Made by a program: the position numbers and the translations under genes. Below the pieces are notes generated by a model that worked only from the letters and a program-made list of their open reading frames with translations, ran no database searches and was not told the DNA's origin. This document shows positions 22,103 through 64,000 of a DNA stretch of 64,000 nt, piece after piece. How positions within the stretch are numbered: the first letter of the stretch is position 1; every line of letters begins with the position of its first letter. The stretch is from Ranitomeya imitator (lineage: Eukaryota): assembly GCF_032444005.1 (NCBI RefSeq), contig NC_091283.1, positions 271,684,001 through 271,748,000 on the forward strand, in the 5' to 3' direction.

Positions 22103-23992
22103 TAGTGTTGAGCATTCCGATACCGCAAGTATCGGGTATCGGCCGATACTTGCGGTATCGGAATTCCGATACCGAGATCCGATACTTTTGTGGTATCGGG
22201 TATCGGTATCGGATACATAGAGATGTGTAAAATAAAGAATTAAAATAAAAAATATTGATATATTTACCTCTCCGGTGGCCCCTGGACTCAGCGCGGGTAA
22301 CCGGCAGGCTTCGTTGTTCAAAATCAGCGCTTTTAGGACCTGAGAATCACGTCCCGGCTTCTGATTGGTCGCGGGCCGCCCATGTGACCGCCACGCGACC
22401 AATCACAAGCCGCGACGTCACCGCAAGCTATTAGCGCGCTCATTTTTGAAAATGAGCGCGTTAATGGCTTTCAAAGACGTAGCGGCTTGTGATTGGTCGC
22501 GTGGCCGCGACCAATCACAAGCCGCGACGTCACCGCAAGCTATTAACGCGCTCATTTTTAAAAATGAGCGCGTTAATGGCTTTCAAAGACGTAGCGGCTT
22601 GTGATTGGTCGCGTGGCCGCGACCAATCACAAGCCGCGACGTCACCGCAAGCTATTAACGCGCTCATTTTTAAAAATGAGCGCGTTAATGGCTTTCAAAG
22701 ACGTAGCGGCTTGTGATTGGTCGCGTGGCCGCGACCAATCACAAGCCGCGACGTCACCGCAAGCTATTAACGCGCTCATTTTTAAAAATGAGCGCGTTAA
22801 TGGCTTTCAAAGACGTAGCGGCTTGTGATTGGTCGCGTGGCCGCGACCAATCACAAGCCGCGACGTCACCGCAAGCTATTAACGCGCTCATTTTTAAAAA
22901 TGAGCGCGTTAATGACTTTCAAAGACGTAGCGGCTTGTGATTGGTCGCGGCCGCGACCAATCACAAGCCGCTACGTCTTTGAAAGTCATTAACGCGCTCA
23001 TTTTTAAAAATGAGCGCGTTAATAGCTTGCGGTGACGTCGCGGCTTGTGATTGGTCGCGTGGCCGCGACCAATCACAAGCCGCTACGTCTTTGAAAGCCA
23101 TTAACGCGCTCATTTTTGAAAATGAGCGCGTTAATAGCTTGCGGTGACGTCGCGGCTTGTGATTGGTCGCGTGGCCGCGACCAATCACAAGCCGCTACGT
23201 CTTTGAAAGCCATTAACGCGCTCATTTTTAAAAATGAGCGCGTTAATAGCTTGCGGTGACGTCGCGGCTTGTGATTGGTCGCGTGGCCGCGACCAATCAC
23301 AAGCCGCTACGTCTTTGAAAGTCATTAACGCGCTCATTTTTAAAAATGAGCGCGTTAATAGCTTGCGGTGACGTCGCGGCTTGTGATTGGTCGCGGCCAC
23401 GCGACCAATCACAAGCCGCTACGTCTTTGAAAGCCATTAACGCGCTCATTTTTAAAAATGAGCGCGTTAATAGCTTGCGGTGACGTCGCGGCTTGTGATT
23501 GGTCGCGTGGCCGCGACCAATCACAAGCCGCTACGTCTTTGAAAGCCATTAACGCGCTCATTTTTAAAAATGAGCGCGCTAATAGCTTGCGGTGACGTCG
23601 CGGCTTGTGATTGGTCGCGTGGCGGTCACATGGGCGGCCCGCGACCAATCAGAAGCCGGGACGTGATTCTCAGGTCCTAAAAGCGCTGATTTTGAACAAA
23701 GAAGCCTGCCGGTTACCTGCGCTGAGTTCAGGGGCCGCCGGAGAGGTAAATATATCAATATTTTTTATTTTAATTCTTTATTTTACACATCCCTATGGAT
23801 CCCAGGGCCTGAAGGAGAGTTTCCTCTCCTTCAGACCCTGGGAACCATGAGAATACCTTCCGATACTTGATGTCCCATTGACTTGTATTGGTATCGGATA
23901 TCGGTATCGGCGATATCCGATATTTTTCGGGTATCGGCCGATACTATCCGATACCGATACTTTCAAGTATCGGACGGTATCGCTCAACACTA
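22103..23992. mobile_element. hAT-type foldback element with internal palindromic array
   Basis: TIRs TAGTGTTGAGC...GCTCAACACTA and a perfect 8-bp TSD GCTACAAA (22095-22102, 23993-24000). The arms are inverted repeats. Confidence 0.95.
22386..23622. repeat. 112-bp hairpin-unit array: 5 units forward, 6 inverted
   Basis: The ORF track repeats every 112 bp and switches strand. The inversion centre is at 22950/22951 (GTCGCGG|CCGCGAC). Confidence 0.95.
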
Positions 23993-25408
23993 GCTACAAA
24001 CAATTTGAAAGTCAGGTCCCCTACTGTATGACACTAGGAACAGAAGATTTTTTTGTGGCCTCTGTATCAGGCCTGTATAACACACTAGATGCTACAAACT
24101 ATTTGAAAGTCAGGTCTCCTACTGTATTACGCTAGGAACTGAAGGATTTTTTGTGGCCTCTGTATCAGGCCTTTATAACACACTAGATGCTACAAACATG
24201 ACTGCGTATTCCAAGATGGGACCTCCGATATACCAGGCCTCTCTTACCACATTGATCCTTATACTCTCCCACTAATTAATACTCCCTAAATTAAAAACAC
24301 AACACTTATTTCTTTTGGATAATTTTGGCCACAGCGGCCATTTTATTAAATAACAAACATAAAAAACCATTTATACATTTGTATAAAAACTTGAGGGGAG
24401 GGTTCTTGGAGCTAATAAATCTGGCACCTAATAGGCAAAGCCCAAAACCAACATGTAAAAACCCCTTCTTTACCCCCAGCCGTAACCACCAGCTCGAGGG
24501 CACCATGTAACCCGTTTACCGGGCAAACCAACCCCAAAGCTCCCGAGGTCAAATCCCCGTCCAGAGCCAGTAAACCAAAGCCAGATCAGCCCCATGAAAC
24601 CAACTCCAAGAACCCCGCCCCCCGCCAACCAGCCACTGTGACAACAATGCAATATAAACCCTTACAAAAACATATTTTTTAACCCCAAATCCCCAACTAT
24701 TCCCTCATTATGGACCAAAAACAAGGGAGGGTGGGAGGGCTTCTCAGGTCAGATATTCCAGCAGTAATGGCCCCTTTCCCGCACTTTTCCATGACCCGCC
24801 CCCCCCCCACTAGACCACCCCTCTACTCCTCCCCATCTCCAGAACCAATCCCTTCTCCCAGCATTCACATTTAAAAATTGCTCTCCTGCGTTCCCTTGGC
24901 AACGCAGTCATGGGGGGCTTTCCTTAACTCCGTTCCTCCAGCCCCCCCTCTTGACTGCGTATTCCAAGATGGGACCTCCGATATACCAGGCCTCTCTTAC
25001 CACATTGATCCTTATACTCTCCCACTAATTAATACCCCCTAAATTAAAAACACAACACTTATTTCTTTTGGATAATTTTGGCCACAGCGGCCATTTTATT
25101 AAATAACAAACATAAAAAACCATTTATACATTTGTATAAAAACTTGAGGGGAGGGTTCTTGGAGCTAATAAATCTGGCACCTAATAGGCAAAGCCCAAAA
25201 CCAACATGTAAAAACCCCTTCTTTACCCCCAGCCGTAACCACCAGCTCGAGGGCACCATGTAACCCGTTTACCGGGCAAACCAACCCCAAAGCTCCCGAG
25301 GTCAAATCCCCGTCCAGAGCCAGTAAACCAAAGCCAGATCAGCCCCATGAAACCAACTCCAAGAACCCCGCCCCCCGCCAACCACGAGCAGCACTGAACA
25401 CCTCAGGC

Positions 25409-26038
25409 TCACGAGTGCCCCACCACCGCCATGGCCCTCTCCACTCCTTCTTGTATTGCCAACATCCACAAATCCAAGCCAATATCGTTCAAATGAACGC
25501 CATCGCTCCTCCAGTAATTTCCAACACCAGCTTCCAACTCAAAATGGCGAACCGCCATCCCCCCGTTACGAGAAACAAAACTCGCCACAGCCCTGTTTAG
25601 CTTCACCAGAGCCCTATTGATACCCTTCATAGAGCGTGCTGCCCTCCACGATTTTCTGGGCACAATGTCGGACCACACCGTAACCATCCCTGGGAAGGAT
25701 ACCCACAATCGCAATAGATCGTACCGTATATCCCGAATTAGTTCTCTCACCGGCTTAGACCCCAAATCATTACCACCCAAATGCACAACAACAATATCCG
25801 GAGAACGATCCAAACTAACCGATCGAGAAAATTCGGTCAAAAACCCGCGCCAGGACATGCCCCGAAAACCCAACCAACGGACCACCACCGCCTCCCTCTG
25901 AAATCCCAATTGCCTACCATCGTGTCTAACATCAGCACGAATCGCCCCCCAATGCACGAAAGAATGGCCGAAAATCCACGCCAGAAGTGGGGTCCGCCCT
26001 GCAAAAATACAACAATGATTAATACCCCCACTAAACAA
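25409..26038 (-). CDS. SGNH/GDSL-type hydrolase of the Ngaro element
   Basis: Block I WIFGHSF, block II LGFRG, block III HLGGND and block V SDGVHLN are all present. Confidence 0.85.
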   Translation of the reverse strand: MFSGGINHCCIFAGRTPLLAWIFGHSFVHWGAIRADVRHDGRQLGFQREAVVVRWLGFRGMSWRGFLTEFSRSVSLDRSPDIVVVHLGGNDLGSKPVRELIRDIRYDLLRLWVSFPGMVTVWSDIVPRKSWRAARSMKGINRALVKLNRAVASFVSRNGGMAVRHFELEAGVGNYWRSDGVHLNDIGLDLWMLAIQEGVERAMAVVGHS

Positions 26039-26046
26039 ATAACAAA

Positions 26047-27093
26047 TCAGTTACGCACATAAGATAAATAACGATTCGACGACCACCTACCAATACGCCG
26101 AATAACCTCCGGGCCCAGCCCCAAACCAGCAGCCTCCGATGCTGCCCCAATTCGGAAGGAGTGCGTCCCAAATAACGCCGGATCCAGGCCCAAAATTGTC
26201 AACGCTTGTCTCAAAACAGCCGTAAACTGAAACCGCGATAAAAATTTGCCCTGACGATGCCGCAAAAGTGGCCCCGACCTATCCGGATCCAAACCCCAAT
26301 ACTCTTCCAAACACCTATGAGGGCACATTGCCCCCCCAATCACTTTTCCCAAAACCACACGCCTTCCTTTCCCCAACTGATCAGTCTTTGACCGCCGGAT
26401 CCAAAACGCAACCCCACCTGACCAAAATTCAGTATCCCCCGCCAACAAACCCCCAGCTGTAAACCTGCTAGGGGAAACCAGCTCCCCTATTCTCAACGCC
26501 CCGAAGAAGGCTAACGAAAAAGCCAGACGAAACAAAACAGCCTCATAATGAGAACTACAAACTTCCCCCAAGACTACACCCAAACGTTCCAACATCCCGA
26601 ACGATATGGGCAGCCGAGCGTCACACGTTGAAAAACCTCTTCTAAAACCTTTTAATGCCTGCCAAATCAAAAATTCCTTAGTAACATCAACAGAACCCTG
26701 AAGCTTGAAACCAAAAGCAACCCCAGCTATAAATTTATTCAACTTCGATACGGACCAGCCCCATTCAACCACCGAACCGATGAAAAGCAACAACGCCATC
26801 ACCTTATCGTCATCCGATTCGACTGAACCCAGCTGATCCAACCACCCTTCCCACAAATGCCACGACGCCTCATAACCTGACCACGTCCTTCCTGACACTG
26901 ACGACTGTATCAGACGTCCTCCTCGTCCGCAACTATCTGCCACAAATGAGAAGGGCATGTCGTTCCTGCATCTTCCGCCTCTGGAGCCAACTCCCGGAAA
27001 CGCGCCCACTGCAAACGAGACAGAGCATCGGCTATAGAGTTTTGCACACCGGGAACATGTACAGCTGAAATCCATGTATTCAACTCCAAGCAC
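26047..27093 (-). CDS. Tyrosine recombinase
   Basis: LAFFGALRIGEL (R), RSKTDQ (K), GTHSFRIGAAS (HxxR) and GRWSSNRYLSYVR (W, Y nucleophile). Overlaps the RT ORF by 184 bp. Confidence 0.93.
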   Translation of the reverse strand: MLGVEYMDFSCTCSRCAKLYSRCSVSFAVGAFPGVGSRGGRCRNDMPFSFVADSCGRGGRLIQSSVSGRTWSGYEASWHLWEGWLDQLGSVESDDDKVMALLLFIGSVVEWGWSVSKLNKFIAGVAFGFKLQGSVDVTKEFLIWQALKGFRRGFSTCDARLPISFGMLERLGVVLGEVCSSHYEAVLFRLAFSLAFFGALRIGELVSPSRFTAGGLLAGDTEFWSGGVAFWIRRSKTDQLGKGRRVVLGKVIGGAMCPHRCLEEYWGLDPDRSGPLLRHRQGKFLSRFQFTAVLRQALTILGLDPALFGTHSFRIGAASEAAGLGLGPEVIRRIGRWSSNRYLSYVRN

Positions 27094-28631
27094 CGCAAAA
27101 CTAACTCCCGAACCAATTTGATTACCGGAGGAGATGAAGATGACAGACTATTGATCACCGACACCACACTCGAATTATCGCAATGGAAACGTATCCGCCT
27201 ATCCTGAAACGTACTGCCCCAAATGAACACCGAAACCACAATTGGAAACAGTTCCAACAACGCCAAATTTTTTGTAAACCCCGCATCACACCACCAATCC
27301 GGCCATCCCCCAACGCTCCACTTTCCAGCACAATAAGCCCCGTATCCAACACTACCAGCCGCGTCCGTAAAAATTTCACAATCGAAATCGTTCAAATCCT
27401 CCTGTTGAATCAGGGCCCTGCCATTATAGTTGTCCAAAAAACGCCTCCAAACCACCAAATCCTCCCTGTGCTCCCTTCTCAATCGTACAAAATGATGCGC
27501 AGACCGCACACCGGCCGTAGCTCTCGACAATCTCCTACAAAATATCCTGCCCATCGGCATGATCCGGCACGCAAAGTTTAACCGCCCCAACAATGACTGA
27601 AGCTCTTTCAATGTAACCTTGCGCAGCTTCTCGCATCTCAATACCTCTTGCCGTAAGGCCAACAGCTTCTCCTCAGGCAAGCGACACTCCATCTTCACCG
27701 AATCTATAAGAATTCCTAAAAAACTCAACACAGTAACAGGTCCTTCCGTTTTGTCACGCGCTAAAGGCACCCCAAACTGGCCTGCTACCCACTCCATCGT
27801 AGCCAACAAATTGCCACACAGCAAAGAATCCGGGGGGCCAACAAACAAAAAATCGTCTAAGTAATGAATAACCGACGGCACCTGGGAAACGTCCCGAACA
27901 ACCCACTCCAGAAAAGTACTAAAAGCTTCAAACAGCGAGCAGGAAATTGAACAACCCATCGGCAAACACCTATCCAAGTAAAACCCTCCATTCCAAAAAC
28001 ATCCCAACAGCGGGATACTATCGGGGTGAACCGGAAGCAACCGAAAAGCCGATTCAACATCTGTCTTAGCCATTAATGCACCTGAGCCATACCTCCGCAC
28101 CCATTGCACGGCAGTATCAAAAGAGGTATAAACCACAGAGCAGAGATCCTCAGCTATCCCGTCATTAACTGACTGGCCCTTCGGATAAGACAGATGCTGA
28201 ATAAGGCGAAACTTGTTGGGCTCTTTTTTAGGAACCACCCCAAGCGGTGACACAACCACCCCCTCCACGGGTAAATCACTAAACGGCCCCGCCATGCGTC
28301 CAAGCTCAACTTCCTTTGCCAATTTAGCCGTAACCACATCAGGCTGCAAATTAGCCGACCTCAAGTTCTTCTTAGAAAAGGGGATAGCATGAGCCGGATG
28401 AGGAATTCTAAACCCCTCAGAAAACCCCTCACACAGCAACCTAGCCTTTTCCCTATCCGGATACCTACTTAGATAAGGGGTCATCCTTAGAACCTTCACC
28501 GGTGTCACCCCCATGACCGCCTCCCACTCCTGGTTTACCCCTCGCTTTCTTGAAACACTTGGCCGCTCCATGTGAGGCCCCTCCGCAGTGGGAAAAATTG
28601 CTCTCCTGCGTTCCCTTGGCAACGCAGTCAT
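26910..28631 (-). CDS. Reverse transcriptase-RNase H (DIRS/Ngaro type)
   Basis: Motifs SPLGVVPKK, AKTDVESAFRLLPV, LPMGCSISC, HYLDDFL, FTDAAG, ALLELFPIVV, FHCDN and NSIADALSR. 573 aa open. Confidence 0.95.
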   Translation of the reverse strand: MTALPRERRRAIFPTAEGPHMERPSVSRKRGVNQEWEAVMGVTPVKVLRMTPYLSRYPDREKARLLCEGFSEGFRIPHPAHAIPFSKKNLRSANLQPDVVTAKLAKEVELGRMAGPFSDLPVEGVVVSPLGVVPKKEPNKFRLIQHLSYPKGQSVNDGIAEDLCSVVYTSFDTAVQWVRRYGSGALMAKTDVESAFRLLPVHPDSIPLLGCFWNGGFYLDRCLPMGCSISCSLFEAFSTFLEWVVRDVSQVPSVIHYLDDFLFVGPPDSLLCGNLLATMEWVAGQFGVPLARDKTEGPVTVLSFLGILIDSVKMECRLPEEKLLALRQEVLRCEKLRKVTLKELQSLLGRLNFACRIMPMGRIFCRRLSRATAGVRSAHHFVRLRREHREDLVVWRRFLDNYNGRALIQQEDLNDFDCEIFTDAAGSVGYGAYCAGKWSVGGWPDWWCDAGFTKNLALLELFPIVVSVFIWGSTFQDRRIRFHCDNSSVVSVINSLSSSSPPVIKLVRELVLRCLELNTWISAVHVPGVQNSIADALSRLQWARFRELAPEAEDAGTTCPSHLWQIVADEEDV

Positions 28632-30270
28632 GGGGGGCTTTCCTTAACTCCGTTCCTCCTCCGTTCCTCCAGCCCCCCCTCTATTTGATAGGTCCCCTAC
28701 TTTATGCCACTAGAAACAGAAGAATTTTTGGGTGGCCTCTGGATCAGGCCTCTACAGCTTAATTTCAACCCAACAAAATGACAAAGTGTGATACAGCGGA
28801 CTGTCTAACTTTTTGCAACTGAAAAATTATAATTTTTTTTTTAATGTGACTTAGGTCTGCATACAGGTTCATATCACCATAGCACTAAATGACAAGCAGG
28901 CTTTCTCACATTTAGCTAGTGAAAAAATATTATTTAGAATGTTCTACTCGTGCATGGAGCACAATAGATGCAGTGCACAACACAATTGTAGGACATGTGT
29001 CCCGCTGGCTTTGTCTGTGGACCTCAGTAATGGCCAAAAAAAGTGCTGGAAGGTAAATGTAATGGCGCTAAAACAAGATGTCCACTCTTTACATGGAGAG
29101 GGACATGTGATTTCAGCAGCCAATGACAAAAGCCATTGTGACAGGACATTGTGGATGTTTCCTGCGCCTGATTGGCTAGCCTCAATGTGCACACATAAAG
29201 TTAGGAAAAAAAGAAAAAAAAGTACTGTTTACAAGAACGCCACGCCTCTGAATTCTGCAAACCCCCTCACCTCATCAAACACGTGCCAAACGCTCATGAT
29301 ACACCATCATTATCGTTGCTAAAGTGCTGAAAATACTTTTGTGGCAATGCAAATATTTTCCCGCACTTTTACGGAATGTTACCGATTTTATAAAATTTTG
29401 CTCGTGTTTCCAATCACGAATCCGAATGTGCCATATTCCTGCCGAATTTATGTTTGGCGATCGTTTTCAGAACAAATTCGCTCATCGCTACCCATAACTA
29501 CCCCCTAGTATAGTATAGTAGCTGGTTCACAATTATCTCTGCGCCCAGGAAATCAACAAGACATGACATCCAACTTAATATTCTTATTCCCCAGCCTATA
29601 TGTCACAAAAATGTTGAAATCTGGTGAAGAACAAAGACCATGTTGCTTGTCTATGCGTCAGACGCTTAGCAGATTCTAAGTATAAAAGACTTTTATGATC
29701 TGTGATTACCATAACCGGATGAACTGCCCTTTCCATAAAATGCTGCCACTTCTCAAAGAACCACTTAATTGCCAAGAGTTCCCTGTTACCAATGTAATAG
29801 TTTTTCTCTGTAGACGACAGTTTATTAAAAAAATGCGCATGGACCCCATTTACTAGGAAGTGCACCTGCAACAATACAGCCCCCCTTCAGATGCCTCAAC
29901 TTCAACAGTAAAAGGCTGAGTGATGTCAATGACGTCAATGATTGGTGCATAAGCAAAGCATTTCTGGACTATTTGGAAAAGTCTGTCCCTTTCCTGGTTA
30001 TATCCGTCAGATGTTTAGCCACTATCGAAAAGTTTTTGATTAACTTATGATAGTAGTTGGCGAAACCCAAAGACCTTTCTAACACCTTTAGGTCCTCAGC
30101 ACAATCCAAATCCAGCACCACCCAGACTTTCGCCAGATCTGTGCAAAAATCGGTGGACGATAAAAAAACAAGAAAAGGGATCTCCTGAACCAAGAAGATG
30201 CATTTCTCGGGTTTGACAAATAATTTATTGTCCCTGAGTATCTGTAGGACCTGCCTGGCATGTATCTTAT

Positions 30271-31288
30271 TGGAGCGCCCCCAGACACAGGGCCACGGGG
30301 TACTCGATCCGGGGTTGTCATGGTGGCTAGACCCGGTCTGTGATCCTGCTAAGGGGCGTCCAATGAAAGGTGATGGTGCCTGGTGCAAGGAATAACGAGG
30401 ATACAGGGTTGTAGTCTCTTTACCTTTTTACTGAAGGCTTCAGGGTCCGCAGTCCAGAGCACTGCTAATAGGGCTGGCTGAGACCGGCCGGTCTGAGGGC
30501 ACATCCAGAGTTCCCTTTGCAGGTGGGAATCAGTGTCTACCTTCTAGCGCCTGTGTGTTGTAGTTCTTCCCTGCTGAGCACCATGGGATAGTCCTCACAA
30601 CTGTCGTATCTGTTCCTTCTCTCTCTCCGTCCCCCAGATTATATGGCTAGGATGCACCTTTATGACAGGTAGGCCTAGAGTTATTCTGGGACCCTAGCGA
30701 CGCCCCTCTCCCACGATTGCCTCCTATGTCCATCTAGGTGATTTAAGTCAGACAGCCAACCTGTAATCAACTGTCCTGCCGCTGTTGAAGTAATGCGTGG
30801 AGTCTGTTACTTCCTCGGTGCTCCGGCCACCGGCTACGCGCCTCAGAAGGATGTTGCCAATCTCGGGGCACGACTCCTTCTGGTTCTATCTCTATACTCA
30901 TACTATGATCCCACTTCTCACTTCTCCACAATATCATTCTCTTCGTGTCCTTCCTTGAGATACCGCCACAAGGTAGTGCAGGCGCGGTCCCGTAACAATC
31001 TGTCCTTTCTGCTAGGTACCTGCCAGGTTCCCAGTTCTGACAGGTCCTCCCTCGAGCTCTCCCATGCTGCGTTCTACCCTAACTTCCTATTCAACCCCCA
31101 GTTTTACCAGTGTGAGGAGTGGCCTAATACATAGTGCCTTTTGCTCCCCCTGGTGGCCGGAGTGTGAAGTGTAGTGTGTGACTGTGATACCTGGTCAAGT
31201 GAACTCCTTTAGTGCAATCAGACATACAATCGCTCCCCTTAGTGGCAGAGCGACATTACTGCAACGACCAGGACTCTGGGGCGCTGCA
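30271..31288 (-). mobile_element. Solo LTR (same family as 3028-4295, opposite orientation)
   Basis: Termini TGGAGCGCCCCCAGA...CTGGGGCGCTGCA and a 4-bp TSD TTAT. Inserted in the old Gypsy RT. Confidence 0.92.
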
Positions 31289-59965: not shown

Positions 59966-61597
59966 AATTACTCTTGAGGCCTACAGTTATAACCGACATG
60001 TATCGATAGCATCTAATAGATTATTTGTCAACTGACCCATAAAATACAGACCCTAAGGAAGGACATAGTAAGCTTCAAGAGGAATGTCAAAAGGGATTGT
60101 TCCACCATGGATCTTAAGATCCCATCATGGTATCAAGCAGGACCCCAACTATTTCTCACCTCTGGTTCCAGCTCTGCACTTCCTCTGGTGCCCGTGGTTC
60201 CTTCTGAATCTGTATCATCTTAAGATAAGCTCTTGTTGCTGTGTATTACTACTTGGTTATATTGTTTAGTCTTTATGCTGACCTTGACTTTGCTCCTGAA
60301 TATGCTGCCTTGTTCTTTGGATTGTCTGTCTGGTACATGTTATTGTTCTCTTAGATCACAAATCTAATGTTTGGTATCACCGTAATGATACTAAAAAATC
60401 ATGTTTCCAGATCACTTTTAACATACAATAAACTCCATCAAAGCAAAACCCCCAAAAGTCTTCAGTATAATATTGTTCAATTATTTCATCCCATTTTCAT
60501 TATTTAGGACGTTATATGGTGTAATTCAAAACTACAATAAAACAGTCCTCGTTTGACATGTCAATATTGTAGTAGAAACATTATGACTCGTGGAAGAACT
60601 GGAGGACACATGAAAACTCTAAAATGGAATAATCTCCTGACCAGTGGAACCCTTGAACTCCACACTCAAGTCTACCCTGTGCCAAAGTCATATTATGGCT
60701 TTTGGAATCCACATTTCTGATACTTAACACCACCACATGGTCATTTAAAGACTTAGGTTGTCCAGTCTGACCAAGGATGGCTATCATATTTATGATGTAA
60801 GGTCAATAAAAAAGGCCAAGAAGAGATTGTCCATGGAATTGAGGAAGTAGAGGAGACAACCTTACTGCAATTGAGTCACAAGAGAGACCTTCATCTTCTA
60901 CCCAGGTGCAGTCATCGAGATCTCTGGAAAAAAAATGAAGAAGTGAAGATCTGGGTTGTGTCACCCGTCATCCACACGCGTTTCCAAAGGCTTAAAAAAA
61001 TTAAGCAGAGAGAAACCTGAGTAACAAAAGGATTGTGTTTATTCATTCCTCCTCTCACTGTAAGGATGTTGTAAACTGACTTTTTAACCAAGTATTAGGC
61101 AAGATTTGGGAGCGAGCCATCCTATAATAAACACTGACATGCTTGTATTCAAATATTTACTTAATACCGTGGAATAACTTATAATGAGCGGAGCGGGGCT
61201 GCCGTATGGACCCGAGTGCTGAAGGATCAGGTCCCACAAGACAGAAATAATGAAAATCCAAAGTAAGAGAAGAACCTACCACCACCAGGACAATCTCCAG
61301 TCCTCATGCCATCTGAAATAATTATGGTGATTCCAACAACCTTTTTAAATCCTTCCATAGATATATCTAGATGAATACCTGGTTTCTAGTACTGTCCTAT
61401 CGTTATCAAATGAGACCCCACTTTTGGTTATAGCCATTAGGCTCTATGGTTGGGTTGGCTTCACTGATCCTCCATGTTCCGACTAAGATTGATGGCCGTA
61501 CATTCCCAATTGTACAAGTATAAAACACATGTAAGAGCAGTAAGTACAGTTCGGAATTGATACGGGATGCCCAGATAGATTGTCATGAAAAAATATA

Positions 61598-63200
61598 CAG
61601 TGGGGCAAAAAAGTATTTAGTCAGTCAGCAATAGTGCAAGTTCCACCACTTAAAAAGATGAGAGGCGTCTGTAATTTACATCATAGGTAGACCTCAACTA
61701 TGGGAGACAAACTGAGAAAAAAAAATCCAGAAAATCACATTGTCTGTTTTTTTAACATTTTATTTGCATATTATGGTGGAAAATAAGTATTTGGTCAGAA
61801 ACAAACAATCAAGATTTCTGGCTCTCACAGACCTGTAACTTCTTCTTTAAGAGTCTCCTCTTTCCTCCACTCATTACCTGTAGTAATGGCACCTGTTTAA
61901 ACTTGTTATCAGTATAAAAAGACACCTGTGCACACCCTCAAACAGTCTGACTCCAAACTCCACTATGGTGAAGACCAAAGAGCTGTCAAAGGACACCAGA
62001 AACAAAATTGTAGCCCTGCACCAGGCTGGGAAGACTGAATCTGCAATAGCCAACCAGCTTGGAGTGAAGAAATCAACCGTGGGAGCAATAATTAGAAAAT
62101 GGAAGACATACAAGACCACTGATAATCTCCCTCGATCTGGGGCTCCACGCAAAATCCCACCCCGTGGGGTCAGAATGATCACAAGAACGGTGAGCAAAAA
62201 TCCCAGAACCACGCGGGGGGACCTAGTGAATGAACTGCAGAGAGCTGGGACCAATGTAACAAGGCCTACCATAAGTAACACACTATGCCACCATGGACTC
62301 AGATCCTGCAGTGCCAGACGTGTCCCACTGCTTAAGCCAGTACATGTCCAGGCCCGTCTGAAGTTTGCTAGAGAGCATTTGGATGATCCAGAGGAGTTTT
62401 GGGAGAATGTCCTATGGTCTGATGAAACCAAACTGGAACTGTTTGGTAGAAACACAACTTGTCGTGTTTGGAGGAAAAAGAATACTGAGTTGCATCCAAC
62501 AAACACCATACCTACTGTAAAGCATGGTGGTGGAAACATCATGCTTTGGGGCTGTTTCTCTGCAAAGGGGCCAGGACGACTGATCCGGGTACATGAAAGA
62601 ATGAATGGGGCCATGTATCGTGAGATTTTGAGTGCAAACCTCCTTCCATCAGCAAGGGCATTGAAGATGAAACGTGGCTGGGTCTTTCAACATGACAATG
62701 ATCCAAAGCAAACCGCCAGGGCAACGGAGTGGCTTCGTAAGAAGCATTTCAAGGTCCTGGAGTGGCCTAGCCAGTCTCCAGATCTCAACCCTATAGAAAA
62801 CCTTTGGAGGGAGTTGAAAGTCCATGTTGCCAAGCGAAAAGCCAAAAACATCACTGCTCTAGAGGAGATCTGCATGGAGGAATGGGCCAAGATACCAACA
62901 ACAGTGTGTGGCAACCTTGTGAAGACTTACAGAAAACGTTTGACCTCTGTCATTGCCAACAAAGGATATATTACAAAGTATTGAGATGAAATTTTGTTTC
63001 TGACCAAATACTTATTTTCCACCATAATATGCAAATAAAATGTTAAAAAAACAGACAATGTGATTTTCTGGATTTTTTTTTCTCAGTTTGTCTCCCATAG
63101 TTGAGGTCTACCTATGATGTAAATTACAGACGCCTCTCATCTTTTTAAGTGGTGGAACTTGCACTATTGCTGACTGACTAAATACTTTTTTGCCCCACTG
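61598..63200 (+). mobile_element. Full-length Tc1 transposon
   Basis: TA|CAGTGGGGCAAAAAAG...CTTTTTTGCCCCACTG|TA. The ~209-bp TIRs appear identical by eye. Length 1603 bp. Confidence 0.97.
61965..62984 (+). CDS. Tc1 transposase, 339 aa, DD33E spacing
   Basis: Paired-like HTH, GRPRK-like GAPRK, WSDETK, HDNDPKQ and [11 protein letters not shown]. Confidence 0.95.
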
Positions 63201-64000
63201 TATATAAATGACACATTAGACGTCAACTATGTTTGTATGCCCCAAGTCAGAACTCGTAAGTTTGTAGTTAAAACTCTTGGATTTTCTACAATAATAGTAG
63301 AGGTGCTACTGTACGCCCTTTGCTTATCTCCTCCTCAGCCCCAACCTGACCACCACCAATCGCATCCTGGTTGCTGTAACTCACCTGGCTGCTTCAACTC
63401 GCCACTGGTTCTCATCATTGCCTTTTTGAGAGCAAGTGGTACCAAGTATCTCTGTGGACCTCCAATTCTTAGCTACCCTTGGTTTTATGAGGGATCTTGC
63501 GATATTACACCCTTGAACAATAAGGTCCACTAGGTTACAGTTCTGTGCATAGGTGTTTGTACTGAAATTCTGGGCATTGACCATGTGTACCTGTAGCCTG
63601 ACCAAGACCTATCTAACTATATTCTACTTTCGCTGCCCTGTTACTATGATTTGGTGTCATAAGTCCTTCCAAAAGCCCACTGTTATTCACAGAGACAACT
63701 CTAAAATAACAACCTAAAGATTCCTTATGGCTTTTTGGAGTAGAAACCTCACATTTCCTTAGACTCAGTACCCTGGTATAACCAATGTCAAATTCATTAG
63801 CAACCCAGTAGGTCCAGATCATCCAAGGTAGCCCTCACGGTAGGAAGATCCTTGAATTCAGGGTATCCGTAACATACAATTGCCCAAAGTGGACCATTGA
63901 CTAGACGACTAGATAATTTTAGAAATAATTTATCTTTGTCCACATTGTATGTGGAAGACACTCTGCTGTTCAATGTCTCTTTCCTCTTGTGATGTAACTG

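What the first reader, a model, noticed from the sequence alone, without database searches (positions are those of the whole stretch)
24199..28682. Gag-less Ngaro retroelement with open RT, YR and SGNH ORFs; the deletion supplies a new in-frame ATG
Seen: the complete split-direct-repeat architecture A1-ORFs-B1-A2-B2, with near-identical 433-bp B repeats. A1 keeps only ~90 bp of the ~320-bp A2 and then joins directly to RT at an AAAAATT junction. An ATG inside A1 (28631) is in frame with RT. Established: Ngaro elements have gag, RT-RH and YR, and some vertebrate ones add an SGNH hydrolase. Inference: a deletion removed the rest of A1 plus gag. The product is a young enzyme-complete but capsid-less copy that could be mobilised in trans, or could supply RT/YR to other copies.
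Basis: partly seen in the sequence, partly recalled or inferred. Interest (0 to 1): 0.7.

Follow-up and report, generated by a model that had tools for sequence, protein, structure and literature searches.

The report
One-off gag deletion in Ngaro copy
This is a single damaged copy of a common frog jumping gene that lost 2 kb from its front end; no second copy with the same break was found, and it likely cannot act as a helper because the lost piece also carried the start codon and the predicted splice site that its recombinase and esterase genes would need.

Summary
The anatomy is real: a young Ngaro (split-direct-repeat, tyrosine-recombinase) retrotransposon with open RT-RNase H, YR and SGNH frames and a 1,959-bp deletion joining A1 to the tail of gag. 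The junction occurs once in the 5.96-Gb genome. All 58 other copies carrying the right-hand 30-mer have gag there, and 107 of 133 copies examined have A1 plus at least 90% of gag. The ATG at 28631 is in frame but not needed: three native in-frame ATGs lie downstream. The deletion also removed gag's ATG and a conserved phase-1 splice donor that matches phase-1 acceptors before YR and SGNH. Annotated frog proteins join Gag-N to YR or SGNH at these positions, so this copy's YR and SGNH are probably not expressed normally. No spliced read was seen here. ORF1-less Ngaro copies are already in print (PMC8547959). This scan noted the splice scheme before, in this genome and three others. Verdict: an ordinary decaying copy; low interest.

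The parts
28593..28682 (-). A1 remnant: A-repeat positions 1-79 plus an 11-bp tandem duplication
   Evidence: duplication in 1 of 133 copies and absent from A2
28649..28670 (-). private 11-bp tandem duplication in A1
28629..28631 (-). A-repeat ATG brought into the RT frame by the deletion; C at -3 and A at +4 (weak context)
28592..28594 (-). deletion junction: 1,959 bp lost relative to a natural full-length sister (its positions 80-2038), 2-bp TT microhomology
   Evidence: unique in genome
28465..28593 (-). gag remnant: last 42 codons (second half of the Cys/His knuckle and tail), no start codon
26910..28631 (-). RT-RNase H frame, 573 aa from the A1 ATG; native in-frame ATGs at 28571, 28514, 28484; YLDD and RNase H acidic residues present
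26047..27147 (-). tyrosine recombinase frame (R, K, HxxR, W, Y motifs present; private changes R162W, R179L, E301K)
27009..27028 (-). predicted phase-1 splice acceptor for YR (AG at 27010-27009)
25409..26050 (-). SGNH hydrolase frame (GHS, GGND, DGVH present; first Met at residue 65, after the catalytic Ser; private R148L)
25999..26016 (-). predicted phase-1 splice acceptor for SGNH (AG at 26000-25999)
24952..25384 (-). B1 repeat, 433 bp
24740..24951 (-). A2 repeat, complete (212 bp)
24632..24739 (-).
24199..24631 (-). B2 repeat, 433 bp, 1 mismatch to B1
24000..24198 (-). about 100-bp tandem unit into which the element inserted; left and right flanks rejoin in register without a target-site duplication

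Best explanation
This is one young copy of a gag-bearing frog Ngaro family that lost 1,959 bp (the last 131 bp of A1 and 606 of 648 gag codons) in a one-off deletion at a 2-bp microhomology, has no detected daughter copies, and is likely a silent dead end. Shown: anatomy, breakpoints, uniqueness, gag-bearing sisters 0.4-0.55% diverged. Inferred: the deletion arose after insertion by microhomology-mediated repair (or once, as a reverse-transcription jump). The lost part of A1 likely held the promoter or start site. The lost gag front is predicted to be the shared first exon that is spliced in frame to YR and to SGNH, so those two open frames have no normal route to protein here. The in-frame ATG is a 1-in-3 coincidence.
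For: Junction 1 hit in 5.96 Gb, while its two halves separately give 59 and 29 hits. 58 of 58 other anchor-carrying copies have gag knuckle sequence before the anchor. 107 of 133 copies have A1 plus >=90% gag; 19 internal deletions, none sharing this copy's breakpoints. Five sisters differ by 14-20 sites in about 3.6 kb and all have gag. 9 private substitutions, 5 amino-acid-changing, two at conserved Arg (YR R179: R in 26 of 31 ungapped homologues; SGNH R148: R in 25 of 26). Donor intact in 50 of 59 and YR acceptor in 51 of 59 rows (this copy counts among those without the donor). Donor and both acceptors are phase 1 here and in a family about 72% identical. 13 of 41 long YR homologues start aligning at the acceptor residue (46-47), 11 of them with a Gag-N-like front and no RT. 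20 of 30 long SGNH homologues have a Gag-N-like front and no RT or YR.
Against: All three enzyme frames are open and all catalytic residues are present. 5 of 9 non-synonymous changes cannot tell neutral decay from weak constraint. One assembly only: daughters in other individuals are not excluded. Genome searches score only the best candidates (150 of 6742). YR has its own Met at residue 64, before the core, and could be translated without the splice. No spliced join was listed in four guessed-RNA contig sets and no spliced DNA copy was found in this genome (0 hits against 85 unspliced). The fusion proteins are automated gene models whose RNA support I could not see, and the Gag-N blast hits are partly low-complexity. 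The transcription start was not mapped.
Confidence: 0.87

Rival explanations
1. Born deleted: during reverse transcription the cDNA jumped early from the gag knuckle region to A2 at the TT microhomology, so the element integrated already lacking gag. Still a single event.
For: The left breakpoint lies inside A, where the split-repeat model needs a template switch (model recalled, not tested). Two private lesions lie within 70 bp of A1 and not in A2; 0 of the other 38 copies with both A repeats has an indel of 4 bp or more in the first ~90 bp. Ends and flanks are precise.
Against: Left breakpoints inside A are 3 of 19 deletions, and one of these (L129) comes with a 443-bp foreign insert. Deletions occur all along the element. 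Post-insertion repair gives the same microhomology signature.
Confidence: 0.25
2. One reading: founder or member of a gag-less, trans-mobilised Ngaro subfamily, or a donor of RT and YR to other copies, driven by the new ATG.
For: ATG in frame; frames open; B1-A2-B2 intact. DIRS-1 RT acts in trans on a construct lacking ORF1 (PMC7192593, passages). Several ORF1-less Ngaro copies exist in Cafeteria (PMC8547959, section 11).
Against: No daughter copy. 11 of 58 relatives have all four ORFs open. A positions 80-210, with motifs shared by a distant family, are gone. Predicted first exon for YR and SGNH is gone. Private changes at conserved residues.
Confidence: 0.05
3. Assembly artefact: the junction was made by mis-joining reads in a repeat.
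For: Seen in one assembly only; no listed contig of four DNA runs bridged it (uninformative: very short contigs, output cut).
Against: Chromosome-scale contig; colinear deletion at a microhomology; ordinary level of private substitutions; flanks in register.
Confidence: 0.04

Closest known systems
Amphibian Ngaro-like elements DIRS-53_XT / DIRS-54_XT (PMC9210276; parts 1-3 of 5 read)
   Same: A1-ORFs-B1-A2-B2; gag-like, RT/RH, YR and SGNH ORFs; A about 236 bp there, about 210 bp here; degenerate copies with lost repeats or broken ORFs are described as common.
   Different: Different family (B 433 bp here, 152 bp there); no direct alignment to the Repbase sequences was possible. This copy lacks most of A1 and gag.
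Cafeteria burkhardae Ngaro type 2b (PMC8547959; section 11 and passages read)
   Same: Ngaro copies with ~2 kb 5' deletions that cover ORF1.
   Different: There several copies form a class with a changed insertion preference; here the deletion is in a single copy.
Pleurodeles waltl Bou1 (PMC13003380; section 12 and passages read)
   Same: Amphibian Ngaro-like element with split direct repeats, described as lacking gag.
   Different: Bou1 is reported as a strongly testis-expressed 5.5-kb transcript; nothing shows expression of this copy.
Truncated DIRS-1 donor construct (PMC7192593; passages read)
   Same: Shows that an ORF1-less YR retroelement RNA can be reverse-transcribed in trans.
   Different: Engineered, inverted-repeat DIRS-1 with its left LTR kept; this copy lost most of its left repeat.

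Membership tests
Ngaro-like YR retrotransposon | split direct repeats A1-ORFs-B1-A2-B2 | tested here: met
   A1 reduced to 79 of about 210 bp
Ngaro-like YR retrotransposon | RT-RNase H ORF overlapped by a YR ORF | tested here: met
Ngaro-like YR retrotransposon | gag-like ORF1 | tested here: not met
   only the last 42 codons in this copy; met by the family: 107 of 133 copies with A1 and >=90% gag. It is a deletion derivative of a member.
Ngaro-like YR retrotransposon (amphibian) | SGNH hydrolase ORF after YR | tested here: met
   Lipase_GDSL_2 E=2.7e-7, 31.7 bits, just under the curated cut-off 32.9; 30 homologues
Ngaro-like YR retrotransposon | RT groups with the Ngaro clade in a tree | not tested
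   no tree with reference Ngaro, DIRS and PAT sequences was built; PAT-like elements also have split repeats (PMC9210276)
Ngaro-like YR retrotransposon | insertion without target-site duplication | tested here: met
   flanks rejoin a tandem unit in register; flanks of 41 copies listed
Non-autonomous (trans-mobilised) subfamily | same deletion at two or more independent loci | tested here: not met
Non-autonomous (trans-mobilised) subfamily | cis ends needed for transcription and end regeneration retained | tested here: inconclusive
   B1-A2-B2 intact; A1 positions 80-210 lost; start site not mapped
Non-autonomous (trans-mobilised) subfamily | transcribed | not testable with these tools
   no run on record as RNA, contigs only

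The most novel reading that the evidence does not exclude
In vertebrate Ngaro elements the front of 'gag' is a shared first exon: one phase-1 donor is spliced to YR or to the SGNH hydrolase, giving Gag-N::YR and Gag-N::SGNH proteins instead of the frameshift proposed in review. A 'gag-less' Ngaro such as this copy is then also recombinase- and esterase-silent, a natural knockout of all three.
Probability: 0.8. Interest if true: 0.5.

Novelty: new member of a known kind. Interest (0 to 1): 0.14.

Why it matters
As a locus it matters little: single internally deleted copies are the normal fate of retrotransposons, and ORF1-less Ngaro copies are already described. A recurrent junction would have shown trans-mobilisation of a vertebrate Ngaro, but it does not recur. 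The useful by-product is the family's predicted splice scheme, which would explain how a start-less SGNH frame and the YR frame are expressed and means that open downstream frames in gag-deleted Ngaro copies should not be read as helper capacity. I did not find that scheme in the paper library, but this scan had already noted it elsewhere.

Tried and rejected
1) Whole-window repeat search was swamped by a 53-bp satellite; replaced by blastn. 2) Sequencing runs: no RNA holder listed. Four guessed-RNA contig sets laid on a full-length copy listed no join at the predicted donor or acceptors; contigs were short, so no evidence either way. 3) Four DNA contig sets laid on 27900-29400 listed no record bridging the junction; 17,529 records not shown; uninformative. 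4) Spliced DNA copies in this genome: 0 hits against 85 for the unspliced control; exact 19-base anchor, so diverged spliced copies would be missed. 5) Permuted integrants (A2-B2 placed in front of A1) were looked for and not seen in 58 copies. 6) L129, the only other copy with A1 and <25% gag, is independent: break at A82, a 443-bp foreign insert, RT resumes 200 bp further on. 7) Script errors: the 'gag-tail W to stop' row used a wrong frame offset (true change G to D); the SGNH-acceptor regex matched nothing and was replaced; the conservation count for YR R162 falls in a poorly aligned column and is not used. 8) Naturally short A1 or naturally gag-less family: rejected.
Full report
Observation. 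The element lies on the minus strand from 28682 to 24199. B1 (25384-24952) and B2 (24631-24199) are 433 bp with one mismatch, and the first 90 bp match the start of A2. Frames for RT-RNase H, YR and SGNH are open. Pfam finds RVT_1 and Lipase_GDSL_2; YR has no Pfam hit but carries the R, K, HxxR, W and Y motifs and has 41 homologues at E<=1e-20, nearly all from frogs. The host is therefore probably a frog (inference; genome 5.96 Gb). The left and right flanks rejoin a roughly 100-bp tandem unit in register, so both ends are intact and there is no target-site duplication.

Against a natural full-length sister (6,429 bp) the A repeat is about 210 bp; the other 108 bp before B2 are a unique spacer. 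The deletion spans sister positions 80-2038 (1,959 bp) with a TT microhomology. It ends inside the C-terminal Cys/His knuckle of gag, leaving 42 of 648 codons. The A1 remnant is A positions 1-79 plus an 11-bp duplication that is in 1 of 133 copies and not in A2. ATG 28631 is in the RT frame, but so are 28571, 28514 and 28484, and full-length copies have four more in-frame ATGs upstream of the break. A random join is in frame one time in three. Its context (C at -3, A at +4) is weak, and full-length A1 holds five ATGs before the gag ATG, which suggests that the 5' part of A is not in the mRNA (inference; the start site was not mapped).

Is the junction shared? The exact 34-mer across it has 1 hit in the genome and a 24-mer with up to one mismatch has 1 hit. 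The right half alone has 59 hits and the left half 29. I fetched all 58 other right-half loci: 58 of 58 have gag knuckle sequence before the anchor. To catch gag-less copies with other breakpoints I searched with SGNH (150 scored of 6,742 candidates) and a YR 22-mer (78 hits) and fetched 78 further loci. I left out the 24 lowest SGNH hits (83-88% identity) and dropped 4 fetched loci of a distant family before counting. Of 133 copies, 107 have the A1 start and at least 90% of gag, 2 have A1 and under 25% (this one and L129), and the 19 internal deletions share no breakpoint with this copy. Some 'no A1' rows are copies whose front was pushed out of the fetched stretch by an insertion. L129 is an independent event. 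These counts are lower bounds from one assembly.

Age and state. The five closest sisters differ from this copy at 14-20 of about 3,640 sites and from each other at 10-18; all have gag. Nine substitutions are private (0.25%). With the Xenopus rate of 3.1e-9 per year quoted in PMC9210276 this is under about 1 million years (borrowed rate). Five of the nine change an amino acid, including SGNH R148L (Arg in 25 of 26 homologues) and YR R179L (Arg in 26 of 31 ungapped homologues, Leu in 3). The numbers are too small to prove neutral decay, but open frames are expected in so young a copy. 11 of the 58 relatives have all four ORFs open by crude length and motif rules.

What the deletion removed besides capsid coding. 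SGNH has no Met until residue 65, after its catalytic Ser near residue 30. Gag holds one canonical donor after codon 285, phase 1, intact in 50 of 59 rows; a pyrimidine tract plus CAG precedes YR (51 of 59) in phase 1 and SGNH in phase 1. The stretch before the SGNH acceptor varies in length by single bases (46, 47, 48 bp in 6, 29, 15 of 50 copies). A family about 72% identical keeps all three sites in phase 1. In public annotations, 13 of 41 long YR homologues begin aligning at residue 46-47, the acceptor position, although the full 366-aa frame was offered; 11 of them have a Gag-N-like front and no RT. 20 of 30 long SGNH homologues have a Gag-N-like front without RT or YR, and 10 of 30 end that front in a TAP-like motif matching the residues before this family's donor. 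These are automated gene models, selected by a search for longer proteins, and the Gag-N hits are partly low-complexity. Against: four guessed-RNA contig sets listed no such join (uninformative), and no spliced DNA copy was found (0, 85 unspliced). YR also has a Met at residue 64. I rate the splice scheme likely, not shown. This copy lost the gag ATG and the donor, and has only one GT(A/G)AG motif between A1 and the YR acceptor (28432), so 'enzyme-complete' describes frames, not expression. I reached this reading before (note). The scan's notes then showed the same idea in this genome (e1-8655617) and in lizard and clam genomes; these are unchecked AI notes, and the search for spliced DNA copies came from them.

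Mechanism. Most likely a single microhomology-bounded deletion, after insertion (repair) or once during reverse transcription. The two cannot be told apart from one assembly: the break inside A and the second private lesion in A1 fit an early jump to A2, but deletions occur along the whole element. Either way the copy has left no detected progeny.

Comparison with what is known. The architecture matches amphibian Ngaro-like elements with SGNH (PMC9210276, parts 1-3 of 5 read). ORF1-less Ngaro copies with ~2 kb deletions are described in Cafeteria (PMC8547959, section 11 and passages), and a newt element is called gag-less (PMC13003380, section 12 and passages). That paper quotes Poulter and Butler 2015 (not read) as proposing a frameshift for YR. 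DIRS-1 RT works in trans (PMC7192593, passages), so trans-mobilisation is possible in principle. PMC6681497 and PMC9341512 (passages) added nothing. Six library searches showed no paper on Ngaro splicing; the founding subscription papers are not in the library and no supplements were read.

Verdict. An ordinary defective copy of a known kind. Interest 0.14.

Noticed in passing
L061-L118 (family copies); e.g. L074, L101, L116: 20 of 58 anchor-selected copies stop at the end of B1 with no A2-B2 (about 44 of 88 by a cruder motif count), including 3 of the 5 youngest sisters. Their right flanks look like normal target sites. B1xB2 recombination is the simple reading, but the frequency in very young copies hints that some are born this way.
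   Followed up: partly
L064:7141-8646 (oriented); also L091: Extra repeat unit: B1-A2-B2-A3-B3 in L064, likely unequal crossing-over between B repeats.
   Followed up: no
L190-L193 and the identical 83% hits: A second Ngaro family, about 72% identical in DNA, with at least 18 SGNH hits of identical score, so probably very recently amplified; it keeps the phase-1 donor and both acceptors.
   Followed up: partly
sister position 1075 (deleted here); window 27009-27010 and 25999-26000: One gag splice donor and two phase-matched acceptors; distance from YR stop to SGNH acceptor varies 46/47/48 bp (6/29/15 of 50 copies), so the stretch before the acceptor is not frame-constrained.
   Followed up: yes
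L129 (G000:C6:129096311-129105311): A second, independent gag-less copy: A1 to position 82, then a 443-bp insert starting at a TTAA site (resembles a frog MITE; label recalled, not tested), then RT.
   Followed up: partly
L164:1168 (oriented): A roughly 5.3-kb insertion sits exactly at the SGNH acceptor.
   Followed up: no
window 22211-23802: Array of about 112-bp self-complementary units forming a 745-bp inverted repeat, 97% complementary, just beyond the element's 3' end.
   Followed up: no
window 2623-about 9000: Long 53-bp tandem satellite, at least 85 overlapping 300-bp matches.
   Followed up: no
window 29596-30427 (minus strand): Broken frames that read like LTR-retrotransposon RT/RNase H (label from my own knowledge).
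   Followed up: no
window 61593-63205: 1.6-kb element with perfect 213-bp terminal inverted repeats, probably a young DNA transposon.
   Followed up: no
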